Part shown: positions 1-13,293 of the stretch, piece after piece
How the letters are laid out: every line of letters starts with the position of its first letter
Position numbering within the stretch: position 1 is the first letter of the stretch
The notes under the pieces: generated by a model
Told to the model about the DNA's origin: nothing
Seen by the model: the letters and a program-made list of their open reading frames with translations, nothing else
Databases searched by the model: none
IMG/VR virus record: IMGVR_UViG_2563366821_000011
Reading direction: 5' to 3' (one strand)
Length of the DNA stretch: 13,293 nt
Source of the DNA: a virus
Taxonomy: Duplodnaviria > Heunggongvirae > Uroviricota > Caudoviricetes
Translations under genes and position numbers: made by a program

Positions 1-669
1 ATGTGTGGACGCTTTGCCCAATCCCAAACGCGTGAAGATTACCTCGCGTTTCTCGCGGAAGATATTGAACGCGATATTCCCTACGATCCCGAACCTATTG
101 GCAGATACAACGTCGCGCCGGGAACCAAAGTCCTTCTGCTCAGTGAACGTGATGAACACCTTCATCTGGATCCGGTTTTCTGGGGATATGCTCCCGGATG
201 GTGGGATAAACCGCCGCTGATTAACGCCCGCGTAGAAACTGCCGCAACCAGTCGCATGTTTAAACCGCTCTGGCAACATGGTCGGGTAATATGCTTTGCC
301 GATGGCTGGTTTGAGTGGAAAAAAGAAGGCGACAAAAAACAGCCTTATTTTATCTATCGCGCTGATGGACAACCTGTTTTTATAGCCGCGATAGGTAGCA
401 CACCGTTTGAGCGCGGTGACGAAGCCGAAGGAGTTTTAATTGTCACTGCAGCAGCAGACCAGGGCCTGGTAGATATTCATGACCGCCGCCCGCTGGTACT
501 GTCGCCAGAAACTGCGCGGGAATGGATGCGGCAAGACATTGGTGGTAAAGAAGCCTCAGAAATCGCTACCAGAAGCTGTGTGCCAGCAAACCAGTTCATC
601 TGGCACCCTGTGTCGCGCGCGGTGGGTAATGTTAAAAACCAGGGCGCGGAGTTAATTCAACCTGTTTGA
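1..669 (+). CDS. yedK: SOS-response-associated peptidase (SRAP) / abasic-site processing protein YedK, 222 aa
   Basis: ORF opens with MCGRF (the N-terminal Cys2 nucleophile typical of SRAP proteins) and matches YedK of E. coli as I recall it. ATG at 1, TGA at 667-669. Confidence 0.9.
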   Translation: MCGRFAQSQTREDYLAFLAEDIERDIPYDPEPIGRYNVAPGTKVLLLSERDEHLHLDPVFWGYAPGWWDKPPLINARVETAATSRMFKPLWQHGRVICFADGWFEWKKEGDKKQPYFIYRADGQPVFIAAIGSTPFERGDEAEGVLIVTAAADQGLVDIHDRRPLVLSPETAREWMRQDIGGKEASEIATRSCVPANQFIWHPVSRAVGNVKNQGAELIQPV

Positions 670-864
670 TAAGCCTGGAGATTATCTACACCTGGATGGA
701 CATCATTGTACTATGCCCCGTACATGCCCCATCACATCCTCAACATCAAAGTATTAGAGCCTTGCAAACCATTATGCGTCTCAGTTTGTCTCATCTATCT
801 TACGCAAAAAAAATAGAACTAATATCAAGCGGCGCTATATTGCGTATTAAATAAAACCACCTCA

Positions 865-887
865 GGTGATGCTGCCAACTTACTGAT
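865..887. repeat. IS1 left terminal inverted repeat (about 23 bp)
   Basis: GGTGATGCTGCCAACTTACTGAT, imperfectly complementary to 1610-1632. Confidence 0.85.
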
Positions 888-919
888 TTAGTGTATGATG
901 GTGTTTTTGAGGTGCTCCA

Positions 920-1195
920 GTGGCTTCTGTTTCTATCAGCTGTCCCTCCTGTTCAGCTACTGACGGGGTGGTGCGTAACGGCAAAAGCACCGCCGGACAT
1001 CAGCGCTATCTCTGCTCTCACTGCCGTAAAACATGGCAACTGCAGTTCACTTACACCGCTTCTCAACCCGGTACGCACCAGAAAATCATTGATATGGCCA
1101 TGAATGGCGTTGGATGCCGGGCAACAGCCCGCATTATGGGCGTTGGCCTCAACACGATTTTACGTCACTTAAAAAACTCAGGCCGCAGTCGGTAA
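920..1195 (+). CDS. insA: IS1 InsA (transposition repressor / N-terminal part of the InsAB transposase), 91 aa, GTG start
   Basis: Translation [22 protein letters not shown]... with a CxxC...CxxC zinc finger and an HTH. Stop TAA at 1193-1195. Confidence 0.9.
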
Positions 1196-1617
1196 CCTCG
1201 CGCATACAGCCGGGCAGTGACGTCATCGTCTGCGCGGAAATGGACGAACAGTGGGGCTATGTCGGGGCTAAATCGCGCCAGCGCTGGCTGTTTTACGCGT
1301 ATGACAGGCTCCGGAAGACGGTTGTTGCGCACGTATTCGGTGAACGCACTATGGCGACGCTGGGGCGTCTTATGAGCCTGCTGTCACCCTTTGACGTGGT
1401 GATATGGATGACGGATGGCTGGCCGCTGTATGAATCCCGCCTGAAGGGAAAGCTGCACGTAATCAGCAAGCGATATACGCAGCGAATTGAGCGGCATAAC
1501 CTGAATCTGAGGCAGCACCTGGCACGGCTGGGACGGAAGTCGCTGTCGTTCTCAAAATCGGTGGAGCTGCATGACAAAGTCATCGGGCATTATCTGAACA
1601 TAAAACACTATCAATAA
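1114..1617 (+). CDS. insB: IS1 InsB reading frame (catalytic part of the InsAB transposase, made by -1 frameshift at AAAAAAC 1171-1177)
   Basis: 167-aa ORF in the -1 frame relative to insA that overlaps the insA 3-prime end. The A6C slippery motif sits at 1171-1177. Confidence 0.85.
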
Positions 1618-1632
1618 GTTGGAGTCATTACC
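1610..1632. repeat. IS1 right terminal inverted repeat (about 23 bp)
   Basis: Reverse complement GGTAATGACTCCAACTTATTGAT matches the left IR at most positions. Confidence 0.85.
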
Positions 1633-1663: not shown

Positions 1664-2650
1664 CTATTTAAGAATAAAACGGTATTTACTGTCAGGAGTG
1701 CTTTGCTGATCAAGTAGCAGTGAACGACATGGAGCAGTCAAAACCCGAGCATAACTACCATCAGGGCTTATGTTAATGTAACAAACCTTGCCCTTAACAC
1801 TATAATTTTCGGGGACGGATGCCTTTGCTGATACAGTAAATTTAAGGGTATGCCAGCCCGTTTTTTGCTTGTAGCTTGAAACCGAATGGAAATCATCTGA
1901 GTACTTATTTAACCCTGGAAACATGCTGCGCAGTGCGGGGATGGAATCTTCTATTATTTTATCGTTGGTTTTAATGTTAAAAACGCTGGTTTCAGTAGAA
2001 GCTACTGCTTTGGCATTTCCCCATTTACCAGCGAACACAATCATTCCCACGAAAAATATTGCTACAAGAACTAACACTCCCCCCAACACTACTACATGAG
2101 GCTTCCGGCTTCTGGTTGGTACAGTTGCGACTGATTTTGCACCGCTTTCCGATGGAGGTGATAGAGTTTTACTCTCATCACGAATATTCAGCAGATCATC
2201 AAAATAACCAAACACAGCCTGCAACTGCTCTTTGTCTAGGCCTTTAAGATGGGTTGTACCGAAATGCTTCAGACAGTATCTGTCACGGTCAAGACGATAC
2301 CCAGGGTCAGTAAGCGCCATTATTTTGCTGACCAGAAGATTACAGTCCTTCATATTCTGGATCTGTTGTGCATATCTCTGAAGGATCTCAACCGCACCAT
2401 GATAATCAGCCGCAGTCATTTCATTAACTGTTTTGGTATTAAGTTTCGTGTGGATCGTCATCCATAGCTCGCGCTTACTTTCCCCCAGATCAACCAATTC
2501 ATCCATCAATCTGTGTAAATCGCGTTTTTGCAGCAACGAAATTGGTTGCTGGGCCGAAGGAAGTATGTCAGCAGAATAGTTATGAATGGTAACATCACCG
2601 CTGACAACGTTACCCACATCCCCGTTAACTGTTTGCTTCTCTTTACTCAT
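1664..2650 (-). CDS. Hypothetical single-pass membrane protein, 328 aa, translationally coupled to the prophage repressor
   Basis: 987-bp ORF in an AT-rich region (about 37-40 percent GC by hand count). Its ATG overlaps the repressor stop in an ATGA. One strongly hydrophobic segment (VVVLGGVLVLVAIFFVGMIVFAG, about aa 185-207) is flanked by basic residues. The N-terminal motif GDVGNVVSGDVTI resembles the repressor C-terminal tail. I recognise no known family. Confidence 0.7.
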   Translation of the reverse strand: MSKEKQTVNGDVGNVVSGDVTIHNYSADILPSAQQPISLLQKRDLHRLMDELVDLGESKRELWMTIHTKLNTKTVNEMTAADYHGAVEILQRYAQQIQNMKDCNLLVSKIMALTDPGYRLDRDRYCLKHFGTTHLKGLDKEQLQAVFGYFDDLLNIRDESKTLSPPSESGAKSVATVPTRSRKPHVVVLGGVLVLVAIFFVGMIVFAGKWGNAKAVASTETSVFNIKTNDKIIEDSIPALRSMFPGLNKYSDDFHSVSSYKQKTGWHTLKFTVSAKASVPENYSVKGKVCYINISPDGSYARVLTAPCRSLLLDQQSTPDSKYRFILK

Positions 2651-3108
2651 CTTCTCTTGGTATTTTTGTTCATTATTCCACCTGTTCCTATGGTTACGTT
2701 ACCTTTGATAACATTCCCCAGAACATCTCCATGAATAACCTGTTCCGCCCGTTCTCTGGAGGAGCCAGTAGTCAAGGCCGACAAAACTGAACCTTTGACC
2801 TGTAATGGTGCCTGCCGGTAGTGCTGCAGTAACTCCATTTCATCACGTGATAAAGTTATACCTGATGACTCCCCGGTAAGAATGAACTGTACATTGGCCC
2901 CAATTCTTGCAAAGGCTGCAAGTAACTCACCTCCGGGAACAGCAACCCCTCGTTCATATTTCCCCCACATTTCTCTTGAAACGCCACAAAGGGCTGCTAC
3001 TTCAGCCTGCTTGAGTGATAACCGCGAACGCTCAGCTTTGAACCGCGACGCGCAAAGAGAATCAAAATTCACACAAACCTCATTGACAATGAGAACAATA
3101 GTTCTCAT
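2647..3108 (-). CDS. XRE/Cro-C1-type HTH transcriptional repressor (prophage c-repressor analogue), up to 153 aa
   Basis: HTH motif LSLKQAEVAALCGVSREMWGKYERG. Transcribed divergently from the early operon, as for Mu c. The start is uncertain: ATG at 3108 lies inside the operator palindrome and has no SD (possibly leaderless), while an in-frame GTG at codon 13 is preceded by GAGG. Confidence 0.75.
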   Translation of the reverse strand: MRTIVLIVNEVCVNFDSLCASRFKAERSRLSLKQAEVAALCGVSREMWGKYERGVAVPGGELLAAFARIGANVQFILTGESSGITLSRDEMELLQHYRQAPLQVKGSVLSALTTGSSRERAEQVIHGDVLGNVIKGNVTIGTGGIMNKNTKRR

Positions 3109-3111
3109 AAT
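3083..3111 (+). promoter_or_regulatory. Putative sigma70 early promoter (Pe-like): -35 TTGACA (3083-3088), 17-bp spacer, -10 CATAAT (3106-3111)
   Basis: Consensus -35, ideal 17-bp spacing and a 5/6 -10, lying 48 bp upstream of the ner-position gene whose SD is AAGGAG and ATG is at 3159. Confidence 0.5.
3089..3108. promoter_or_regulatory. Putative operator: perfect palindrome ATGAGAAC-N4-GTTCTCAT within the early promoter spacer
   Basis: 8-bp perfect inverted repeat arms with a 4-bp spacer between the -35 and -10 of the rightward promoter. It overlaps the first codons of the repressor ORF. Confidence 0.5.
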
Positions 3112-3158
3112 CTATCACATATAAAACAAACATCATTGCATCAACAAAGGAGACAACA

Positions 3159-3347
3159 ATGACTTCCGAACAAGTTAAAAATCTCTTCCGTCAGCGTGGT
3201 ATCACGTTTACCCGCTGGGCCGAAGAACACGGCTACAGCCGCAATGAGGTCTATCGTGTTCTCAATGGACAGACCAAAGCTCGTTACGGCAAAGCCCATG
3301 AAATTGCCGTAAAACTGGGATTAAAACCCACGTCAAATGCGGCATAA
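3159..3347 (+). CDS. Small HTH DNA-binding protein in the ner position (Ner/Cro-like early regulator), 62 aa
   Basis: Strong SD AAGGAG 7 nt upstream. HTH-like segment TRWAEEHGYSRNEVYRVLNGQ. First gene of the rightward operon, opposite the repressor. Not obviously similar in sequence to Mu Ner. Confidence 0.65.
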   Translation: MTSEQVKNLFRQRGITFTRWAEEHGYSRNEVYRVLNGQTKARYGKAHEIAVKLGLKPTSNAA

Positions 3348-3399
3348 ATTTTCCACATATGCAACAGGTTATCACATATTGCAAAAATGGAAATGTGAC

Positions 3400-3708
3400 A
3401 TGAGTAAAGTAAATATTTCCAGTTCTGGGACCCGCATCCTACGTGTACTCAAAGCTCTACGCGGTCATGCTCTGAACGGTGTTTCTAACGGTGAACTGGC
3501 ATCAGCCCTGGGGGAGTCCCCGGCGAATATCAATCGAGCACTTAATACCCTTATTGAAGAGGGACTGGCCATGAAATTAGAGAACGGACGTTTCGCACCG
3601 GGAATCCAGTTACTACAGATCGCCATGGCTCACAGTCACGAGATGGCGCGTGCACAGGATCGTATTAACGAAATCAACCAACGAGTTATTTCAGGTAGTC
3701 GTTTGTAA
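3400..3708 (+). CDS. Winged-HTH DNA-binding protein (IclR/MarR-like N-terminal domain only), about 103 aa
   Basis: Motif ILRVLKALRGHALNGVSNGELASALGESPANINRALNTLIEEGLAMK resembles an IclR-type wHTH. Start chosen at ATG 3400 (weak SD); an alternative in-frame ATG at 3337 overlaps the upstream gene. Confidence 0.55.
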   Translation: MSKVNISSSGTRILRVLKALRGHALNGVSNGELASALGESPANINRALNTLIEEGLAMKLENGRFAPGIQLLQIAMAHSHEMARAQDRINEINQRVISGSRL

Positions 3709-3718
3709 GGAGTAATCA

Positions 3719-4633
3719 ATGGGACGCACCAAATCACCCGTTAACACTGAACTGAATGTTGAGGTTCCGCTGTCAGATAACATCAATGTCAATTTGAACG
3801 CTATGACACAGCATCGCATGGAAATTATGCAGCAGTTTGGTGATGGACTGCCTTATGAACGTGATCGCATTGTTCACGAAGCACGTTTTTATATGGCGCA
3901 GAGTGCTGAATCTATGCTGGAAGCGGGTAAGCGGCTGATCATCTTAAAAGAAAATGAGCCACACGGTGATTTTACAAACATTTTAGAAAATGAACTCGGA
4001 CTTGCACCACAAGTTGCTCGCCGCATGATGCAAGCCAGTATGAAGTTTTTGGGAGAAGGTGATGAGCCAACAAAACGCTCAACGTTGAGCGTTTTGGGGA
4101 AAGCCAAACTGTACGACCTGATGGTTCTGGATAATGAAGAACTTGATGAATTGGCCGACGGCGGCACAGTTGCCGGCCTGACGCTTGACGACGTTGATCG
4201 CATGTCAGTACGTGAATTGCGTCAGGCCCTGCGCGAAGCGCGCGAAACCAACGCAGCACAACAGCGCGTACTCGCCGACAAAAATGAAAAAATAGATTCA
4301 CTCTCCACCAGACTGGAGAAGAAATCCCGTATTCAGCCGCCTGAGCCTGATGAGGAGGTTAAGAAGCTGCGGGCGGAAGTAACAGCATTAGCGGTTGAGG
4401 CGGAATCTGCTATCGCCGTCCGACTGTCCAGCGCTTTTGAGACGCTGTGCGCATATTGTGCTGAAAACATGATTGATACCCCCAGAGACTTCATGGCAGG
4501 CCTGGTCTGTCAACTGGAAAGCACAGCGCGTAGCCTGCGCTCCACATTTGACCTGCCGGACGAGCCAACAGGCAATGCAGCGCCTTCATGGCTGACTGAG
4601 CCGACGCCACAGATTAACGGGCTGGAGGCATAA
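3719..4633 (+). CDS. Hypothetical early protein, DUF3102-like N-terminal region plus coiled-coil and acidic C-terminus, 304 aa
   Basis: SD TAAGGAG 6 nt upstream of ATG. Motif HGDFTNILENELGLAPQVARRMMQASMKF resembles what I recall of DUF3102. Stop is 3 nt before the transposase ATG. Confidence 0.6.
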   Translation: MGRTKSPVNTELNVEVPLSDNINVNLNAMTQHRMEIMQQFGDGLPYERDRIVHEARFYMAQSAESMLEAGKRLIILKENEPHGDFTNILENELGLAPQVARRMMQASMKFLGEGDEPTKRSTLSVLGKAKLYDLMVLDNEELDELADGGTVAGLTLDDVDRMSVRELRQALREARETNAAQQRVLADKNEKIDSLSTRLEKKSRIQPPEPDEEVKKLRAEVTALAVEAESAIAVRLSSAFETLCAYCAENMIDTPRDFMAGLVCQLESTARSLRSTFDLPDEPTGNAAPSWLTEPTPQINGLEA

Positions 4634-4636
4634 CCA

Positions 4637-6406
4637 ATGAATGCTGCCCTGACTGAACGACTGGTTTATGTCGCCCGCGCGGCACGTGACGCGGGGCATG
4701 GTAAACGCGGTGCAATATACGACGCTGCCTGTGCTGAACTTGGCATGTCCCGCGCCACTCTGCTGCGCAGGCTGAAGGAGGTCTCTGTGACTGATAAACG
4801 CAAAAAACGCGCCGATGCCGGGCGCAGCGCCCTGACCCGCGACGAAGCCGCGCTGATATCTGCCACACTGCGTGAGGCCACCCGCAAGAACGGTAAGCGT
4901 CTCTATTCCATCGCAGATGCAGTGGAAACCCTACGGGCTAACGGCTTTATCACCGCAGGCAGAACAGATGAAACCACCAGTGAGTTTTTCCCGTTGTCTG
5001 AAGATGCCATCAGCCGTGCTCTGCGTAACTATGGCCTGCACCCGGAACAACTGGATGCCCCTGCACCACATACCGAAGTGGCCAGTCTGCATCCCAATCA
5101 TGTCTGGCAGATTGACGCCTCACTCTGCACGCTTTACTACCTGAGCAATGGACATAAAGGGCTGCAGGTGATGGACAGCGCGAAGTTCTACAAGAACAAG
5201 CCCGCTAACCTTGCCCGTATCGCCAGTGACCGCGTGTGGAGTTACGAGATTACCGACCATGCCAGCGGCTGGATTTACGTTGAGTATGTGACGGGCGCGG
5301 AATCAGGTGAGAACCTGTGTTCTGTGCTTATCAACGCCATGCAGGAGCGTGGCGGCGCAGACGTGCTGCACGGCGTGCCGAAAATACTCTATCTCGACCC
5401 CGGCTCGGCAAACACCGCGGGTATGACGAAAAACATGTGCCGCTCACTGGGCATCGACCTGATAGCGCACAAGCCGCATAACGCCCGCGCCACCGGACAG
5501 GTGGAAAAGGCGCGTGACATTATCGAACGCAAGCTGGAGCCGGGGCTGAAGTTCCGGCCGGTTCACAGTCTGGAAGAACTCAACGCGCTGGCCGCGAAAT
5601 GGCGCAGCCACTTTAACGCCACGGCTGTTCACAGCCGCCACGGTAAAACCCGCACGGATATCTGGCTGAAGATTACTGCTGAGCAGCTGAAAAAAGCGCC
5701 TTCCGTTGAGGTATGTCGTGAACTGGCTGTGGCGGCACCAGAACTCCGCAAAGTCACGCCAAAACTTCGTGTCTCGTTCCGGGGCACTGAATTTGACGTA
5801 TCAACGGTACCGGGCGTACTGGTTGGTGAAAAACTGATGATTACCCGTAACCCATGGCGCAGCGATGTGGCACAGGTGGTTCTGACCGGTGAGGACGGCC
5901 ACGAGACGTTCTTCCTGGTCGAAGAGGTCAGAAAGAACGAGTTTGGCTTTGCTGAAGGCGCGGCGGTATTTGGCGAAAGTTACAAAGCCCTGCCGGAAAC
6001 CTCGGCACAGATGGCGGCAAAAGAAACTGAAGCGCTGGTTACCGGTACAGACAACGCTGCAGATGCAGCCGCCGCACGCAAGGCGAAGGCGCTGCCGTTC
6101 GGCGGGCGGCTTGACCCGTATAAACATATCGACGACACCACACTTCCGGCCTATATGCCGAAGCGTGGTCAGGCCTCTGACGTACGCGGGCCGCGCACTG
6201 AACAACGTCCCATGACTCATGTGGAGGCCGCGAAAGCCCTGCGCGATAAGTTCAGCGCCGACGGCCTTACCTGGACGCCGGAACATTACCGCCAGTTAAC
6301 GGCACAGTACCCGGACGGCGTACCGGAAGCTGCACTGGATGAAGTCATGGCCACGCTGACCACGCCGGCACGCAGCAGTGTTATCAGCATTGTTAACGGC
6401 AACTGA
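4637..6406 (+). CDS. Mu-like DDE transposase (A protein), 589 aa
   Basis: N-terminal HTH, then an rve-type catalytic core with D160 (HVWQIDAS), D254 (LYLDPGS) and E290 (ATGQVEKA; D-35-E spacing). Located immediately upstream of the AAA+ B gene. Confidence 0.9.
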   Translation: MNAALTERLVYVARAARDAGHGKRGAIYDAACAELGMSRATLLRRLKEVSVTDKRKKRADAGRSALTRDEAALISATLREATRKNGKRLYSIADAVETLRANGFITAGRTDETTSEFFPLSEDAISRALRNYGLHPEQLDAPAPHTEVASLHPNHVWQIDASLCTLYYLSNGHKGLQVMDSAKFYKNKPANLARIASDRVWSYEITDHASGWIYVEYVTGAESGENLCSVLINAMQERGGADVLHGVPKILYLDPGSANTAGMTKNMCRSLGIDLIAHKPHNARATGQVEKARDIIERKLEPGLKFRPVHSLEELNALAAKWRSHFNATAVHSRHGKTRTDIWLKITAEQLKKAPSVEVCRELAVAAPELRKVTPKLRVSFRGTEFDVSTVPGVLVGEKLMITRNPWRSDVAQVVLTGEDGHETFFLVEEVRKNEFGFAEGAAVFGESYKALPETSAQMAAKETEALVTGTDNAADAAAARKAKALPFGGRLDPYKHIDDTTLPAYMPKRGQASDVRGPRTEQRPMTHVEAAKALRDKFSADGLTWTPEHYRQLTAQYPDGVPEAALDEVMATLTTPARSSVISIVNGN

Positions 6407-6416
6407 GGAGGAAAAC

Positions 6417-7583
6417 ATGCTGGTACTGAAGCAGCAACTGAAAGAGGCCCGTATCCCACAGGCGGTGGTGGCGAGAGCTGTCGATGTTTCTGAGGCCACG
6501 CTGGCCCAGATTGTGAATCATAACGCGTGGCCCCGCACCAGCCCCGGAGAAGTGCGCCGGCGTCTTGCGTCCTGGCTGGAAAGTCAGGGGATTGATACAA
6601 CGAAGAGTTTTGATGCTGTACAGGGCGCAGCCACGCCCCGTACAGCGGGTACCACAGATAAAACGAGCCTCAGTGAGGAAGAGAATATGTTACTCAAAAA
6701 ACAGGTGTTATTTCCAGCAACCAAAAAAGCGTTTGGTCTTTTCCGTGACCCGTTCGCCGATGAAGCCATGCAGGGTTCTGATGATGTGTTCACCACCCCG
6801 GACATTCGCTACGTGCGTGAGGCGTTGTACCAGACAGCCCGTCATGGTGGGTTTATGGCCGTCATCGGTGAGTCCGGTGCGGGTAAATCCACGCTGCGCC
6901 GCGACCTGACTGAACGTATCAACCGCGAGAATGCGCCGGTAATTGTTATCGAGCCATACATCATCGCTATGGAAGACAACGATGTGAAAGGGAAAACCCT
7001 GAAGGCAGCAGCGATTGCCGAAGCCATTATCAGTACCATCGCACCACTGGAAAGCATCAGACGCAGTCAGGACGCCCGCTTTCGCCAGTTGCATCGCGTC
7101 CTGAAAGACAGCAGCCAGGCGGGGTTCAGCCACGTTTTGGTGATTGAGGAGGCCCACAGTCTGCCCATTCCGACACTGAAACACCTCAAACGCTTTTTTG
7201 AGCTGGAGTCCGGTTTCAAAAAACTGCTGTCCATCGTGCTGATTGGCCAGCCGGAACTGGCGACAAAACTGTCTGAACGCAATATGGAAGTCCGTGAAGT
7301 CGTTCAGCGTTGTGAGGTGGTCGAACTTCTGCCTCTGGACAATAACCTTGAAGAATTTCTGACGTTCAAACTGCAACGGGCCGGTAAACAACTGACGGAC
7401 ATTATGGACGCCAGCGCAGTGGATGCCATACGTGCCCGCCTGAGCAATCCGGGAAGTCATCGTAAAAATATGGTCAGCCTGCTGTATCCGCTGGCCGTCA
7501 GTAACCTGGTGATAGCCGCCATGAATCTGGCCGCTGAAATCGGGGTTCCACAGGTCAACGCTGACGTTGTCAAAGGGGTTTAA
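6417..7583 (+). CDS. Mu B-like AAA+ ATPase (transposition target DNA activator), 388 aa
   Basis: SD GAGGAGG directly upstream. N-terminal HTH (QAVVARAVDVSEATLAQIVN), Walker A GESGAGKST and Walker B VLVIEEAH. An in-frame internal ATG with its own SD lies at 6687. Confidence 0.85.
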   Translation: MLVLKQQLKEARIPQAVVARAVDVSEATLAQIVNHNAWPRTSPGEVRRRLASWLESQGIDTTKSFDAVQGAATPRTAGTTDKTSLSEEENMLLKKQVLFPATKKAFGLFRDPFADEAMQGSDDVFTTPDIRYVREALYQTARHGGFMAVIGESGAGKSTLRRDLTERINRENAPVIVIEPYIIAMEDNDVKGKTLKAAAIAEAIISTIAPLESIRRSQDARFRQLHRVLKDSSQAGFSHVLVIEEAHSLPIPTLKHLKRFFELESGFKKLLSIVLIGQPELATKLSERNMEVREVVQRCEVVELLPLDNNLEEFLTFKLQRAGKQLTDIMDASAVDAIRARLSNPGSHRKNMVSLLYPLAVSNLVIAAMNLAAEIGVPQVNADVVKGV

Positions 7584-12532: not shown

Positions 12533-13293
12533 TGTCTGATCAACCAGTAGTTATTACTGTCTACCGGAACACTGACGGTAACCTGCGGTTCAGTATTGCT
12601 GGCGTGTTCCGGTTGCGAAGTGAACCAGCGTACCGCGCGGTGACGATTTTCTCGTTGTGAATGGCCGATAAACCAGGGTTGGGTGACATAGCCGTAATAA
12701 CGCGTTGGTACATTGCGCGTAAACAAGGTCGGCAGCGTCGAAACGTAAAATCCAGCACGCGAGACATACACCGCCTGTTCAACCATCGACGAGGAGTTGT
12801 GCGCCAGTCGCAGCAAGTAACCAACTTCCAGTGCAGCGGTAATTTCATTGTCGAGGCTTTCATTTTCGCGAGACAGGAGATTCCCCTCGCTGACTAATGC
12901 ATCCGATACGCCATTGACTGGCAGGGTGCGCCGTCGGTTGAGTTCGATTTGCCAGGTGTGCTCGTCGCGATGCTGTTCGAACTCGGTTACGGCATTACGC
13001 AGAGAGGTGAAATCCAGTGGCGCCACGAGAGCTTCGCGCATGCCATTACGCAAAAAGATCAGTTTGTCGACGTTATACTGCAAATGCTTATCGAGCGCGT
13101 TGGCTACGTTTTCCAGATGATTACGCTGGCTGGAGATATAGGCATCTTCCAGCACCACCACTTCACGCCAGGTGAGCAAGGTGGAAAAAAGCAATACCAC
13201 GATAAAGCAGAGATTAACGATATGACCAGGCCCCAGGCGGCGTGCGAGTTTTTTCAACCAGCTCTGGTTTTCCATTTTTGTCTCGTGCTGCAC
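12502..13293 (-). pseudogene. dgcQ: 5-prime fragment of a DgcQ/YedQ-like membrane-anchored diguanylate cyclase gene (N-terminal TM and periplasmic sensor domain only; GGDEF domain absent)
   Basis: The ORF starts at the window edge (GTG) and reads [15 protein letters not shown]..., with a signal-anchor TM ([18 protein letters not shown]) and a periplasmic-type domain. It ends after 263 aa with a short unrelated tail ([13 protein letters not shown]) and has no GGDEF motif. Identity is from memory of E. coli YedQ (about 564 aa). Confidence 0.55.

What the first reader, a model, noticed from the sequence alone, without database searches (positions are those of the whole stretch)
3083..3160. Compact genetic switch: consensus -35, palindromic operator in the spacer, and possibly leaderless repressor
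The rightward early promoter has a consensus -35 (TTGACA), a 17-bp spacer and a CATAAT -10. The spacer holds the perfect palindrome ATGAGAAC-N4-GTTCTCAT, so a dimer bound there would occlude RNA polymerase. The palindrome also overlaps the ATG of the leftward repressor ORF, which lacks an SD. Candidate leftward promoter elements (TTGATG, then TATATG on the minus strand) end about 9 nt before that ATG, so the repressor may be translated from a leaderless mRNA as lambda cI is from PRM.
Basis: seen in the sequence. Interest (0 to 1): 0.45.

Follow-up and report, generated by a model that had tools for sequence, protein, structure and literature searches.

The report
Prophage early promoter with embedded repressor operator
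This is the on/off switch of a Mu-like (BcepMu/B3-type) E. coli prophage, in which the repressor's 20-bp palindromic binding site sits inside a near-consensus early promoter; that is an ordinary design, and the proposed leaderless start of the repressor is probably an annotation artefact.

Summary
The sequence features are all present as described. TTGACA lies at 3083-3088, followed by a 17-bp spacer and CATAAT at 3106-3111. The perfect palindrome ATGAGAAC-AATA-GTTCTCAT lies at 3089-3108.

Comparative evidence strongly supports the operator reading. About 80 loci were retrieved by repressor protein homology. Most carry the same scaffold: TTGACA, 17 bp, CATAAT, with an inverted repeat in the spacer. 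The arms are conserved, the central 4 bp vary, and the arm sequence co-varies with the repressor's recognition helix.

The palindrome travels with the repressor, not with the rightward gp16-family ("Ner-position") gene.

The leaderless idea is not supported. The ATG at 3108 is part of the operator half-site and the -10. In 24 of 33 distinct related loci the equivalent ATG is out of frame or followed by a stop. Homologues start at MNFDSL, which is GTG 3072 in the window, 5 nt after a GAGG Shine-Dalgarno sequence. The annotated 153-aa protein is therefore probably 141 aa.

The leftward promoter cannot be fixed from sequence. In the related phage Fc02, repressor transcription in the lysogen appears to come from a distal promoter.

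Verdict: a real but ordinary new member of a known kind of switch.

The parts
3083..3088 (+). -35 hexamer TTGACA of the rightward early promoter (Pe)
   Evidence: Read directly and found by the promoter scan. TTGACA-like hexamers sit at the same place in most family loci.
3089..3108 (.). Operator: perfect palindrome ATGAGAAC-AATA-GTTCTCAT, with 8-bp arms and a 4-bp centre. It spans about -29 to -10 of Pe.
   Evidence: Present and unique. Arms are conserved and the centre varies in loci found by protein homology. Arms co-vary with the repressor recognition helix. It travels with the repressor and not with the rightward gene.
3106..3111 (+). -10 hexamer CATAAT of Pe. Its first 3 bp are the end of the right operator arm.
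   Evidence: CATAAT is conserved across immunity types.
3117..3119 (+). Predicted Pe transcription start, inferred as 6-8 nt after the -10.
   Evidence: Inference from promoter geometry only; it has not been mapped.
3148..3152 (+). Shine-Dalgarno AGGAG of the first early gene
   Evidence: The anti-SD duplex energy is -8.7 kcal/mol.
3159..3347 (+). First early gene: a 62-aa HTH protein of the BcepMu gp16 family, in the position that Ner holds in Mu.
   Evidence: TIGR04111 gives 94.4 bits against a cut-off of 34. It also matches PHROG 925. It is 87% identical in prophages that have an unrelated palindrome.
2647..3072 (-). Immunity repressor gene as proposed here: GTG start, 141 aa, XRE/P22 C2-like HTH.
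   Evidence: HTH_31 and HTH_3 hits. P22 C2 N-terminal domain at E 9e-5. B3 ORF18 is 36% identical and BcepMu gp17 38%. Homologues start at the MNFDSL position.
3078..3081 (-). Shine-Dalgarno GAGG for the GTG 3072 start, 5 nt upstream and next to the Pe -35.
   Evidence: Duplex energy -6.3 kcal/mol. GGAG, GGGG, GGTG or AAGG occupy the same place in relatives.
3073..3108 (-). The 12-codon N-terminal extension in the PGAP annotation (MRTIVLIVNEVC); probably not translated.
   Evidence: The extension consists of the operator, the -35 and the Shine-Dalgarno sequence read as codons. It is out of frame or stopped in 24 of 33 related loci. Its substitutions are radical: L>P, I>K, R>G, C>Y/F.
3118..3144 (-).
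   Evidence: It matches 8 of 12, has a 15-bp spacer and lacks the -7 T. It is missed by the standard scan. The -10-like element is lost in L031, L032 and L042.
3109..3117 (-). Alternative leftward extended -10, TGaTAGATT; unverified. Its start site would fall near 3102, downstream of ATG 3108.
   Evidence: TGnTAGATT or TGTTATATT is kept in most gp16-type loci. The same bases are also the Pe start region, so this conservation is ambiguous.
1664..2650 (-). A 328-aa Flk_N-like protein gene whose start overlaps the repressor stop (ATGA); part of the leftward immunity operon.
   Evidence: PHROG 10002. A Flk_N protein sits next to the repressor in L009 and L011. A 318-aa gene with no Pfam hit holds the same position in L013. 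BcepMu gp18 also holds that position.

Best explanation
The region 3070-3160 is the lysis/lysogeny switch of a BcepMu/B3-type transposable prophage.

The rightward early promoter Pe (TTGACA, 17 bp, CATAAT) drives the early operon. That operon holds the gp16-family HTH protein, an IclR-like regulator, a DUF3102 protein, a DDE transposase, an AAA+ ATPase and, further on, Gam and Mor.

The 20-bp palindrome ATGAGAAC-N4-GTTCTCAT fills the Pe spacer and the first half of the -10. It is the single operator of the leftward XRE (P22 C2/434-like) repressor.

A repressor dimer is proposed to place one recognition helix on each 8-bp arm. The A/T-rich centre would not be read base-specifically. The bound dimer would sterically exclude RNA polymerase, keeping the transposition and lytic genes silent.

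The repressor is translated from GTG 3072 using the GAGG Shine-Dalgarno sequence at 3081-3078, giving 141 aa. It is not translated from the ATG inside the palindrome.

Wherever the leftward transcript starts, it starts inside the operator or has to cross it. The repressor is therefore expected to limit its own synthesis as well.

Shown by computation: the anatomy, its conservation, the co-variation of arms with the recognition helix, and start-codon conservation. Inferred: dimer binding, occlusion, autoregulation and the transcription start sites.
For: Promoter and palindrome:
- Both are present. The promoter is the only hit in 2600-3800 and the palindrome is unique in the window.
- The palindrome is also unique in 46 kb of an intact copy of the prophage.

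Immunity module boundary:
- Homology to prophages of other immunity types starts at window 3107, the right edge of the palindrome.
- So the repressor, the -35 and the palindrome form the exchangeable immunity module.
- Those other types carry their own palindrome at the same position, for example TTGATA-T-GCTCATAATTATGAGC-AATAAT in JJ1886 and PhiKM.

Conservation in loci found by protein homology:
- In loci whose repressors are 59-89% identical, the -35, both arms and the -10 are kept. The centre changes between AATA, TATA, TAAA and TTTA.
- In 14 such loci the mean consensus frequency is 0.91 and 0.94 for the arms. It is 0.75 for the centre and 0.62-0.66 for the flanks.
- Across about 80 species-level loci the scaffold recurs. 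In more than half of the distinct loci 7 or 8 of the 8 arm positions pair (my count from the table); random genomic 25-mers reach that in 1.9% of cases.

Co-variation with the recognition helix:
- GVSRE(M/I)WG(K/R)YERG goes with TGAGAAC/GTTCTCA.
- G(I/V)KRETWSRYESG goes with TGTGATC/GATCACA.
- AETTKKSQIDYEK goes with GGTAACTA/TAGTTACC.
- GGV(K/Q)KQAQLKYEKS goes with GGTACTCA/TGAGTACC.
- There are also symmetric double changes: ATGCGAAC/GTTCGCAT in L040 and AGAGATC/GATCTC in L033.

The operator tracks the repressor:
- The identical unit lies upstream of non-homologous rightward genes: ribbon-helix-helix-like 63-70-aa proteins and a 145-aa protein.
- The gp16-family protein is 87% identical between immunity types whose repressors are 36% identical and whose palindromes are unrelated.

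Homology to known phages:
- The repressor's HTH resembles P22 C2 and 434 repressor.
- Phage B3 has the same geometry. Its annotated GTG start lies 10 nt from TTGACA, and GGTGCAA-TATT-TGGCACC sits in the spacer.

Start codon.
Against: - No binding, footprint or transcription-start data exist for this element or, as far as my searches show, for any close relative.
- Everything about binding is comparative inference, and related loci are not independent samples.
- PGAP annotates the 153-aa form.
- In the window's own clade (window, L013, L009, L011, L014, L025) the ATG is in frame and open, so a long isoform is not excluded there.
- No convincing leftward promoter was found, so the autoregulation statement is geometric reasoning only.
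- The repressor has no S24 peptidase domain, so how repression is lifted remains unknown.
Confidence: 0.72

Rival explanations
1. The palindrome is the operator, and its right arm also supplies the start codon of a 153-aa repressor. That protein would be translated from a leaderless mRNA starting at or just before ATG 3108, driven by TTGATG-15-TATATG, as lambda cI is from PRM.
For: - ATG 3108 opens the longest ORF and has no Shine-Dalgarno sequence.
- PGAP calls this start.
- The -10-like TATATG ends 9 nt before the ATG.
- The frame is open in the closest clade.
Against: - The ATG is dictated by the half-site and by the CATAAT -10. In 24 of 33 distinct related loci it is out of frame or followed by a stop.
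- This includes L016 and L026 with identical arms, and L031 and L032 with one right-arm change.
- 17 of the 27 aligned homologues (28 rows including the window protein) begin exactly at MNFDSL.
- A conserved G-rich Shine-Dalgarno sequence precedes that codon in all group-1 loci, with -6.3 against +0.4 kcal/mol for the two starts.
- Substitutions in the extension are radical.
- The candidate promoter matches 8 of 12, has a 15-bp spacer and no -7 T, and is not conserved.
- Any RNA that contains the whole palindrome buries the AUG in an 8-bp hairpin of -9.2 kcal/mol.
- In the B3-family phage Fc02, repressor transcription in the lysogen appears to start at a distal promoter, which would give a long leader (PMC9936078).
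Confidence: 0.07
2. The palindrome is bound by the gp16-family (Ner-position, Cro-like) protein, either instead of the repressor or in competition with it, as Cro shares operators with CI in lambdoid phages.
For: - Cro-type proteins of lambda, 434 and P22 use the repressor's operators (established knowledge).
- The gp16-family protein is a small HTH protein encoded first on the Pe transcript.
Against: - The gp16-family protein is 87% identical, with an almost unchanged HTH region, in prophages whose palindrome is completely different.
- The identical operator occurs in prophages that have no gp16-family gene.
- The sequence conserved together with gp16 is CTATCACATAT, downstream of the -10, not the palindrome.
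Confidence: 0.07
3. The palindrome is not a protein site. It is either a chance inverted repeat or an RNA hairpin acting on the leftward transcript as a 5' stabiliser or attenuator.
For: - About 2.3 perfect 8+8 inverted repeats are expected per 13 kb by chance.
- The repeat can fold as an RNA hairpin of -9.2 kcal/mol.
Against: - Its position is fixed between the -35 and the -10 in most of about 80 loci.
- The arms change together with the recognition helix of the adjacent repressor.
- Single-arm variants break pairing on the leftward transcript: GTTCACAT gives an A-A mismatch and ATGAGAAT an A-C mismatch.
- There is no Rfam match.
Confidence: 0.03

Closest known systems
Lysis/lysogeny region of Pseudomonas phage B3 and its relative Fc02 (repc / pC2-pE / ner-like), and BcepMu gp17-gp16
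   Same: - The repressor is homologous: 36% identity to B3 ORF18 and 38% to BcepMu gp17.
- The rightward gene belongs to the gp16 family and is about 70% identical in DNA to B3 ORF17.
- The layout is the same short divergent intergenic region.
- In B3 a TTGACA lies 10 nt from a GTG repressor start, with an inverted repeat in the spacer.
- The early operon holds transposase and ATPase genes.
   Different: - The operator sequence and the recognition helix differ: ATGAGAAC/GTTCTCAT here against GGTGCAA/TGGCACC in B3.
- The host is E. coli.
- For B3 and Fc02 the promoters are predicted and supported by RNA-seq, but operators were not mapped (PMC9936078).
- Whether this prophage has a distal pC1-like promoter is unknown.
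434 and P22 C2 repressor-operator systems
   Same: - The closest solved structures to the HTH domain are P22 C2 (E 9e-5) and 434 repressor.
- The operator is palindromic, with conserved outer arms and a variable centre that is probably not contacted.
- The operator overlaps the core of the lytic promoter.
   Different: - There is one operator here rather than three adjacent cooperative ones.
- There is no S24 autocleavage domain.
- The operator lies in the spacer and not mainly over the -10 or -35.
- There is no evidence for an activated PRM-type promoter.
Phage Mu c / Ner / Pe-Pc switch
   Same: - Both are transposable phages.
- The repressor gene is divergent from an early operon whose first product is a small DNA-binding protein, followed by transposase and ATPase genes.
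- The early and repressor promoters probably overlap.
   Different: - Mu c is not an XRE HTH protein and binds multiple operator regions, O1 to O3 (my own knowledge).
- The rightward protein here hit only HTH_31 in Pfam and no other family. It belongs to the BcepMu gp16 family, so it is only a positional analogue of Ner.
Lambda cI translated from the leaderless PRM transcript
   Same: Only the superficial picture: a repressor ORF whose longest form starts at an ATG that has no Shine-Dalgarno sequence and lies next to the operators.
   Different: - The ATG is not conserved as a start.
- A Shine-Dalgarno-led start exists 36 nt downstream.
- No operator is placed so as to activate a leftward promoter.

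Membership tests
B3/BcepMu-type transposable-phage immunity switch | Leftward repressor homologous to B3 ORF18 / BcepMu gp17 | tested here: met
   36% identity to B3 ORF18 at E 1e-15. 38% identity to BcepMu gp17 by tblastn.
B3/BcepMu-type transposable-phage immunity switch | Divergent first early gene belongs to the BcepMu gp16 family | tested here: met
   TIGR04111 gives 94.4 bits against a cut-off of 34. blastn matches to B3 ORF17 and to genes annotated 'Ner-like antirepressor'.
B3/BcepMu-type transposable-phage immunity switch | Early operon with a DDE transposase, an AAA+ ATPase, Gam and Mor | tested here: met
   rve domain in 4637-6406 and AAA_22 in 6378-7583. Gam and Mor are annotated in the identical SCU-172 copy.
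B3/BcepMu-type transposable-phage immunity switch | Overlapping divergent promoters pE and pC | tested here: inconclusive
   pE is clear, at 11 of 12. Leftward candidates match at most 8 of 12 and are mutually exclusive alternatives.
434 / P22 C2-type HTH repressor with palindromic operator | XRE-type HTH domain similar to P22 C2 and 434 | tested here: met
   HTH_31 at 30.5 bits and HTH_3 at 23 bits. P22 C2 at E 9e-5 and 434 repressor at E 0.02.
434 / P22 C2-type HTH repressor with palindromic operator | Two-fold symmetric operator with conserved arms and a variable centre, co-varying with the recognition helix | tested here: met
434 / P22 C2-type HTH repressor with palindromic operator | Dimer actually binds the site | not testable with these tools
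   Needs EMSA or footprinting.
434 / P22 C2-type HTH repressor with palindromic operator | C-terminal S24 (LexA-like) autocleavage domain and tandem cooperative operators | tested here: not met
   No Peptidase_S24 hit. Only one operator copy in the window and in 46 kb of the intact prophage.
Leaderless repressor mRNA (lambda PRM-cI type) | The start codon used is conserved among homologues | tested here: not met
   9 of 33 distinct loci have it in frame and open. Stops follow immediately in L016, L026, L031 and L032.
Leaderless repressor mRNA (lambda PRM-cI type) | No Shine-Dalgarno-led alternative start | tested here: not met
   GTG 3072 has GAGG 5 nt upstream, at -6.3 kcal/mol. Homologues start there.
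Leaderless repressor mRNA (lambda PRM-cI type) | Transcript 5' end at the A of the AUG | not testable with these tools
   Needs 5' RACE or dRNA-seq.
Mu Ner family | The rightward protein matches a Ner-type Pfam family | tested here: not met
   HTH_31 at 24.2 bits is the only Pfam hit at E <= 0.01. The protein is assigned to the BcepMu gp16 family instead. That Mu Ner is covered by a separate Pfam model is my own knowledge; I did not scan Mu Ner itself.

The most novel reading that the evidence does not exclude
In the E. coli, Salmonella and Serratia clade where the frame is open, the right operator arm could double as the start codon of a long (153-aa) repressor isoform. It would be made from a very short-leader or leaderless proximal transcript. 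One 20-bp element would then be the DNA operator of Pe, a 5' RNA hairpin, and the translation start of its own binding protein. The 141-aa form would come from longer transcripts.
Probability: 0.07. Interest if true: 0.5.

Novelty: new member of a known kind. Interest (0 to 1): 0.27.

Why it matters
For this locus alone it matters little. An operator inside the core of a lytic promoter is textbook prophage control.

Three modest points have practical value:

1. The RefSeq protein for this repressor (153 aa) is probably 12 residues too long at the N-terminus. The extra "codons" are the operator, the -35 and the Shine-Dalgarno sequence.

2. The repressor family offers a natural series of different recognition-helix and half-site pairs. 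All sit in one nearly invariant TTGACA-17-CATAAT scaffold. This could serve for deriving a recognition code or as orthogonal repressor-promoter parts.

3. The window's prophage copy is an IS1-truncated remnant that keeps an intact switch and early (transposase) operon. The repressor-operator pair is therefore what keeps a potentially active transposition module silent in these E. coli lineages.

Tried and rejected
- Extra operator copies. I searched for the full site at up to 3 mismatches in the window and in 46 kb of the intact SCU-172 prophage and found only the one site. Single half-sites at up to 1 mismatch are no more frequent than chance. The GTTCTCAA at 3258-3265 is ordinary coding sequence (RVLNG) shared by all immunity types.
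- The 25-nt direct repeat 3061-3085 / 3114-3138 (76%). The left copy is not kept in other immunity types or in L009, so I treat it as chance.
- The leftward promoter. A permissive scan of the minus strand over 3060-3420 gave only matches of 8 of 12 or less. The three geometries I considered are TTGATG-15-TATATG, the extended -10 TGaTAGATT, and the mirror -10 GATTAT at 3112-3107. I could not separate them by conservation, because the same bases also form the Pe start region.
- Literature. I found no paper describing operators of BcepMu-like or B3-like repressors. The Fc02 RNA-seq paper gives promoters only.
- Rfam: no match in the window.
- BcepMu itself has the TTGACA-17-CATACT promoter but only a weak inverted repeat in the spacer, GGTA...TACC. 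The design is therefore frequent in the family but not universal.
- The exact-pattern scan of viral contigs required the arms, so it cannot be used as evidence for arm conservation. I used it only for the diversity of the flanks and for the frame test.
Full report
**1. What is there**

- TTGACA lies at 3083-3088, followed by a 17-bp spacer and CATAAT at 3106-3111.
- The perfect inverted repeat ATGAGAAC-AATA-GTTCTCAT lies at 3089-3108.
- The last three bases of the repeat (CAT) are the first three of the -10 hexamer.
- The promoter scan lists this as the only sigma-70-like site on either strand in 2600-3800, matching 11 of 12 positions.
- The palindrome is unique in the window even at three mismatches. 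It is also unique in 46 kb of an intact copy of the same prophage.
- A perfect 8+8 repeat somewhere in 13 kb is not remarkable: 2.3 are expected.
- The chance that a given 23-mer (spacer plus -10) holds one is 4.6e-4.

**2. Context**

The window is a BcepMu/B3-type transposable prophage of E. coli.
- From position 1633 onward it is 100% identical to E. coli SCU-172 and other complete genomes.

Leftward genes:
- An XRE-HTH repressor (HTH_31 and HTH_3).
- Its stop overlaps the start of a 328-aa Flk_N-like gene.

Rightward genes:
- A 62-aa BcepMu gp16-family HTH protein (TIGR04111, 94.4 bits against a cut-off of 34).
- An IclR-like winged-helix protein, a DUF3102 protein, an rve-domain transposase and an AAA+ ATPase.
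- Further on, Gam and Mor.

Homologues and nearest structures:
- The repressor is 36% identical to B3 ORF18 and 38% to BcepMu gp17.
- Its closest solved relatives are the N-terminal domains of P22 C2 and 434 repressor.
- It has no S24 peptidase domain.

**3. The palindrome is the repressor's operator: comparative evidence**

(a) *Mosaic boundary.*
- Prophages of other immunity types (JJ1886/PhiKM, ZH063, 2016C-3878, HN68/KP12) align with the window only from 3107 rightward.
- The repressor, the -35 and the palindrome are therefore exchanged together.
- Each of those types has its own (near-)palindrome in the same spacer, for example TTGATA-T-GCTCATAATTATGAGC-AATAAT.

(b) *Conservation pattern.*
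- Some loci were found purely by repressor protein identity (59-89%). They keep TTGACA, both arms and CATAAT.
- Their centre reads AATA, TATA, TAAA or TTTA, and the flanks diverge.
- Over 14 such loci the consensus frequency is 0.91 and 0.94 for the arms. It is 0.75 for the centre and 0.62-0.66 for the flanks. The regex used there fixed a few arm positions, so this figure is descriptive.

(c) *Family-wide design.*
- A genome scan seeded on a peptide outside the HTH returned 80 species-level loci.
- Most have a promoter matching 9-11 of 12 with a 17-bp spacer, starting 4-10 nt from the repressor start.
- In more than half of the distinct loci (my count from the table) the spacer holds an inverted repeat in which 7 or 8 of 8 arm positions pair. 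Random genomic 25-mers reach that in 1.9% of cases.

(d) *Co-variation with the recognition helix*.
- GVSRE(M/I)WG(K/R)YERG pairs with TGAGAAC/GTTCTCA, from Enterobacteria to Pseudomonas, Azonexus and Methylocaldum.
- G(I/V)KRETWSRYESG pairs with TGTGATC/GATCACA.
- AETTKKSQIDYEK pairs with GGTAACTA/TAGTTACC.
- GGV(K/Q)KQAQLKYEKS pairs with GGTACTCA/TGAGTACC.
- B3-like ...SKRTQIGWEQG pairs with GGTGCA/TGCACC.
- Symmetric double changes occur: ATGCGAAC/GTTCGCAT and AGAGATC/GATCTC.

(e) *The operator follows the repressor, not the rightward gene.*
- The exact unit TTGACA-ATGAGAAC-N4-GTTCTCAT-AAT occurs in 16 viral contigs.
- It lies upstream of three unrelated rightward genes: gp16-type, ribbon-helix-helix-like 63-70-aa proteins, and a 145-aa protein.
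- Conversely, the gp16-family protein is 87% identical between the window and the JJ1886 type. Their repressors share 36% identity and their palindromes share nothing.

Phage B3 has the same geometry.

The loci are phylogenetically related, so the counts are not independent events. Even so, the combined pattern is what a dimeric HTH operator predicts: arms kept, centre free, flanks free, and arms switching with the helix.

**4. Mechanism**

- If Pe starts about 7 nt after the -10, near 3118, the operator covers about -29 to -10.
- A dimer bound there would block RNA polymerase from the spacer and the upstream half of the -10. The early (transposase) operon would stay off.
- This step is inferred. 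No binding data exist for this family as far as my literature searches show.

**5. The leaderless proposal**

The minus-strand ATG at 3108 has no Shine-Dalgarno sequence (+0.4 kcal/mol), and PGAP uses it. However, it is an automatic consequence of the half-site ATGAGAAC and of the CATAAT -10.

Frame test:
- Among 33 distinct related loci with such an ATG, only 9 have it in frame and open. That is about what chance gives.
- L016 and L026, which have identical arms, read ATG AGA ACT TAA.
- L020 and L029 are out of frame.
- L031 and L032 read ATG TGA.

Conserved start:
- Of the 27 aligned homologues (28 rows including the window protein), 17 begin exactly at MNFDSL.
- In the window this codon is GTG 3072-3070. 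It is preceded by GAGG (3081-3078) 5 nt upstream, at -6.3 kcal/mol.
- The homologous codon is ATG, GTG or TTG in every group-1 locus, always behind GGAG, GGGG, GGTG or AAGG.
- B3's annotated start is the homologous GTG.

The extension:
- The 12 extension "codons" are simply the operator, the -35 and the Shine-Dalgarno sequence read in frame.
- Their differences between relatives are radical: L>P, I>K, R>G, C>Y/F.
- An RNA that contains the whole palindrome folds the AUG into a hairpin of -9.2 kcal/mol.

The proposed leftward promoter:
- TTGATG-15-TATATG matches 8 of 12, has a short spacer and lacks the -7 T.
- Its -10 is lost in Pectobacterium and Brenneria relatives that have a near-identical operator, differing at one right-arm base.
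- Alternatives exist: the extended -10 TGaTAGATT at 3117-3109, and the mirror hexamer GATTAT at 3112-3107. Both would start transcription inside the operator, downstream of ATG 3108.
- None of the three can be chosen from sequence.

Precedent from Fc02:
- In the B3-family phage Fc02, strand-specific RNA-seq indicates that repressor transcription in the lysogen appears to come from a distal promoter, pC1.
- That transcript runs antisense through the ner-like gene. The proximal pC2 overlaps pE (PMC9936078).
- By analogy, a long-leader, Shine-Dalgarno-dependent mRNA is the more likely situation here.

I put the leaderless reading at about 7%.

**6. Comparison and novelty**

- The element works like a 434/P22-type operator placed in a lytic promoter. 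By gene content it belongs to the B3/BcepMu-type switch.
- It differs from lambdoid switches in three ways. It has a single operator, it has no S24 domain, and its first early protein does not share the repressor's operator.
- It is a new, uncharacterised member of a known kind. The family-wide scaffold with swappable specificity is a useful by-product but not a surprise.
- Interest is 0.27.

Noticed in passing
window 4071-4096: A perfect 26-bp palindrome, CAAAACGCTCAACGTTGAGCGTTTTG, lies inside the DUF3102 gene (3719-4633). It is the longest perfect inverted repeat in the window. It is present in all identical prophage copies fetched. Its exact 20-bp core was not found in any of the other-immunity loci fetched.
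   Followed up: partly
window 1-1632: A host SRAP gene lies at 1-669 (yedK by my reading; only the SRAP domain was tested). It is followed by an IS1 with ORFs at 920-1195 and 1114-1617. Identity to intact prophages begins at 1633. The lysis and structural genes that lie on the repressor side in SCU-172 are missing. The window's copy therefore looks like an IS1-truncated remnant that keeps the switch and the early transposition operon. The other prophage end is near 12542, next to dgcQ.
   Followed up: partly
window 3112-3124 and 3348-3399: TATCACATAT occurs at 3113-3122 and 3370-3379, and TTCCACATAT at 3351-3360. An imperfect 20-nt inverted repeat (3350-3369 / 3374-3393) fills the gap between the gp16-family gene and the IclR-like gene. 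CTATCACATAT after the -10, and GGTTATCACATAT, are conserved across immunity types. These are candidate sites for the gp16-family or IclR-like protein. Alternatively they may form a weak minus-strand promoter, GTGATA-16-GAAAAT at 3375-3348, reminiscent of the distal pC1 of Fc02.
   Followed up: partly
window 1664-2650 (-): The repressor stop overlaps the start (ATGA) of a 328-aa Flk_N-like protein (PHROG 10002). The same repressor plus Flk_N pairing occurs in an integrase-type Salmonella prophage (L011). BcepMu gp17-gp18 has a membrane protein in that position. This may be a co-transcribed immunity or exclusion function.
   Followed up: partly
L011, L014, L017, L025 (Salmonella and other integrase-type prophages): The identical operator-promoter unit and a 59-64% identical repressor sit in non-Mu-like prophages. 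Those carry a tyrosine integrase and a ribbon-helix-helix-like first rightward gene. The immunity module therefore moves between phage types.
   Followed up: partly
window 3337-3708 (+): The longest ORF of the IclR-like regulator starts at 3337 and overlaps the end of the gp16-family gene. PGAP, and the PHROG 1368 profile (residues 1-100 of 101), fit a start at 3400.
   Followed up: partly
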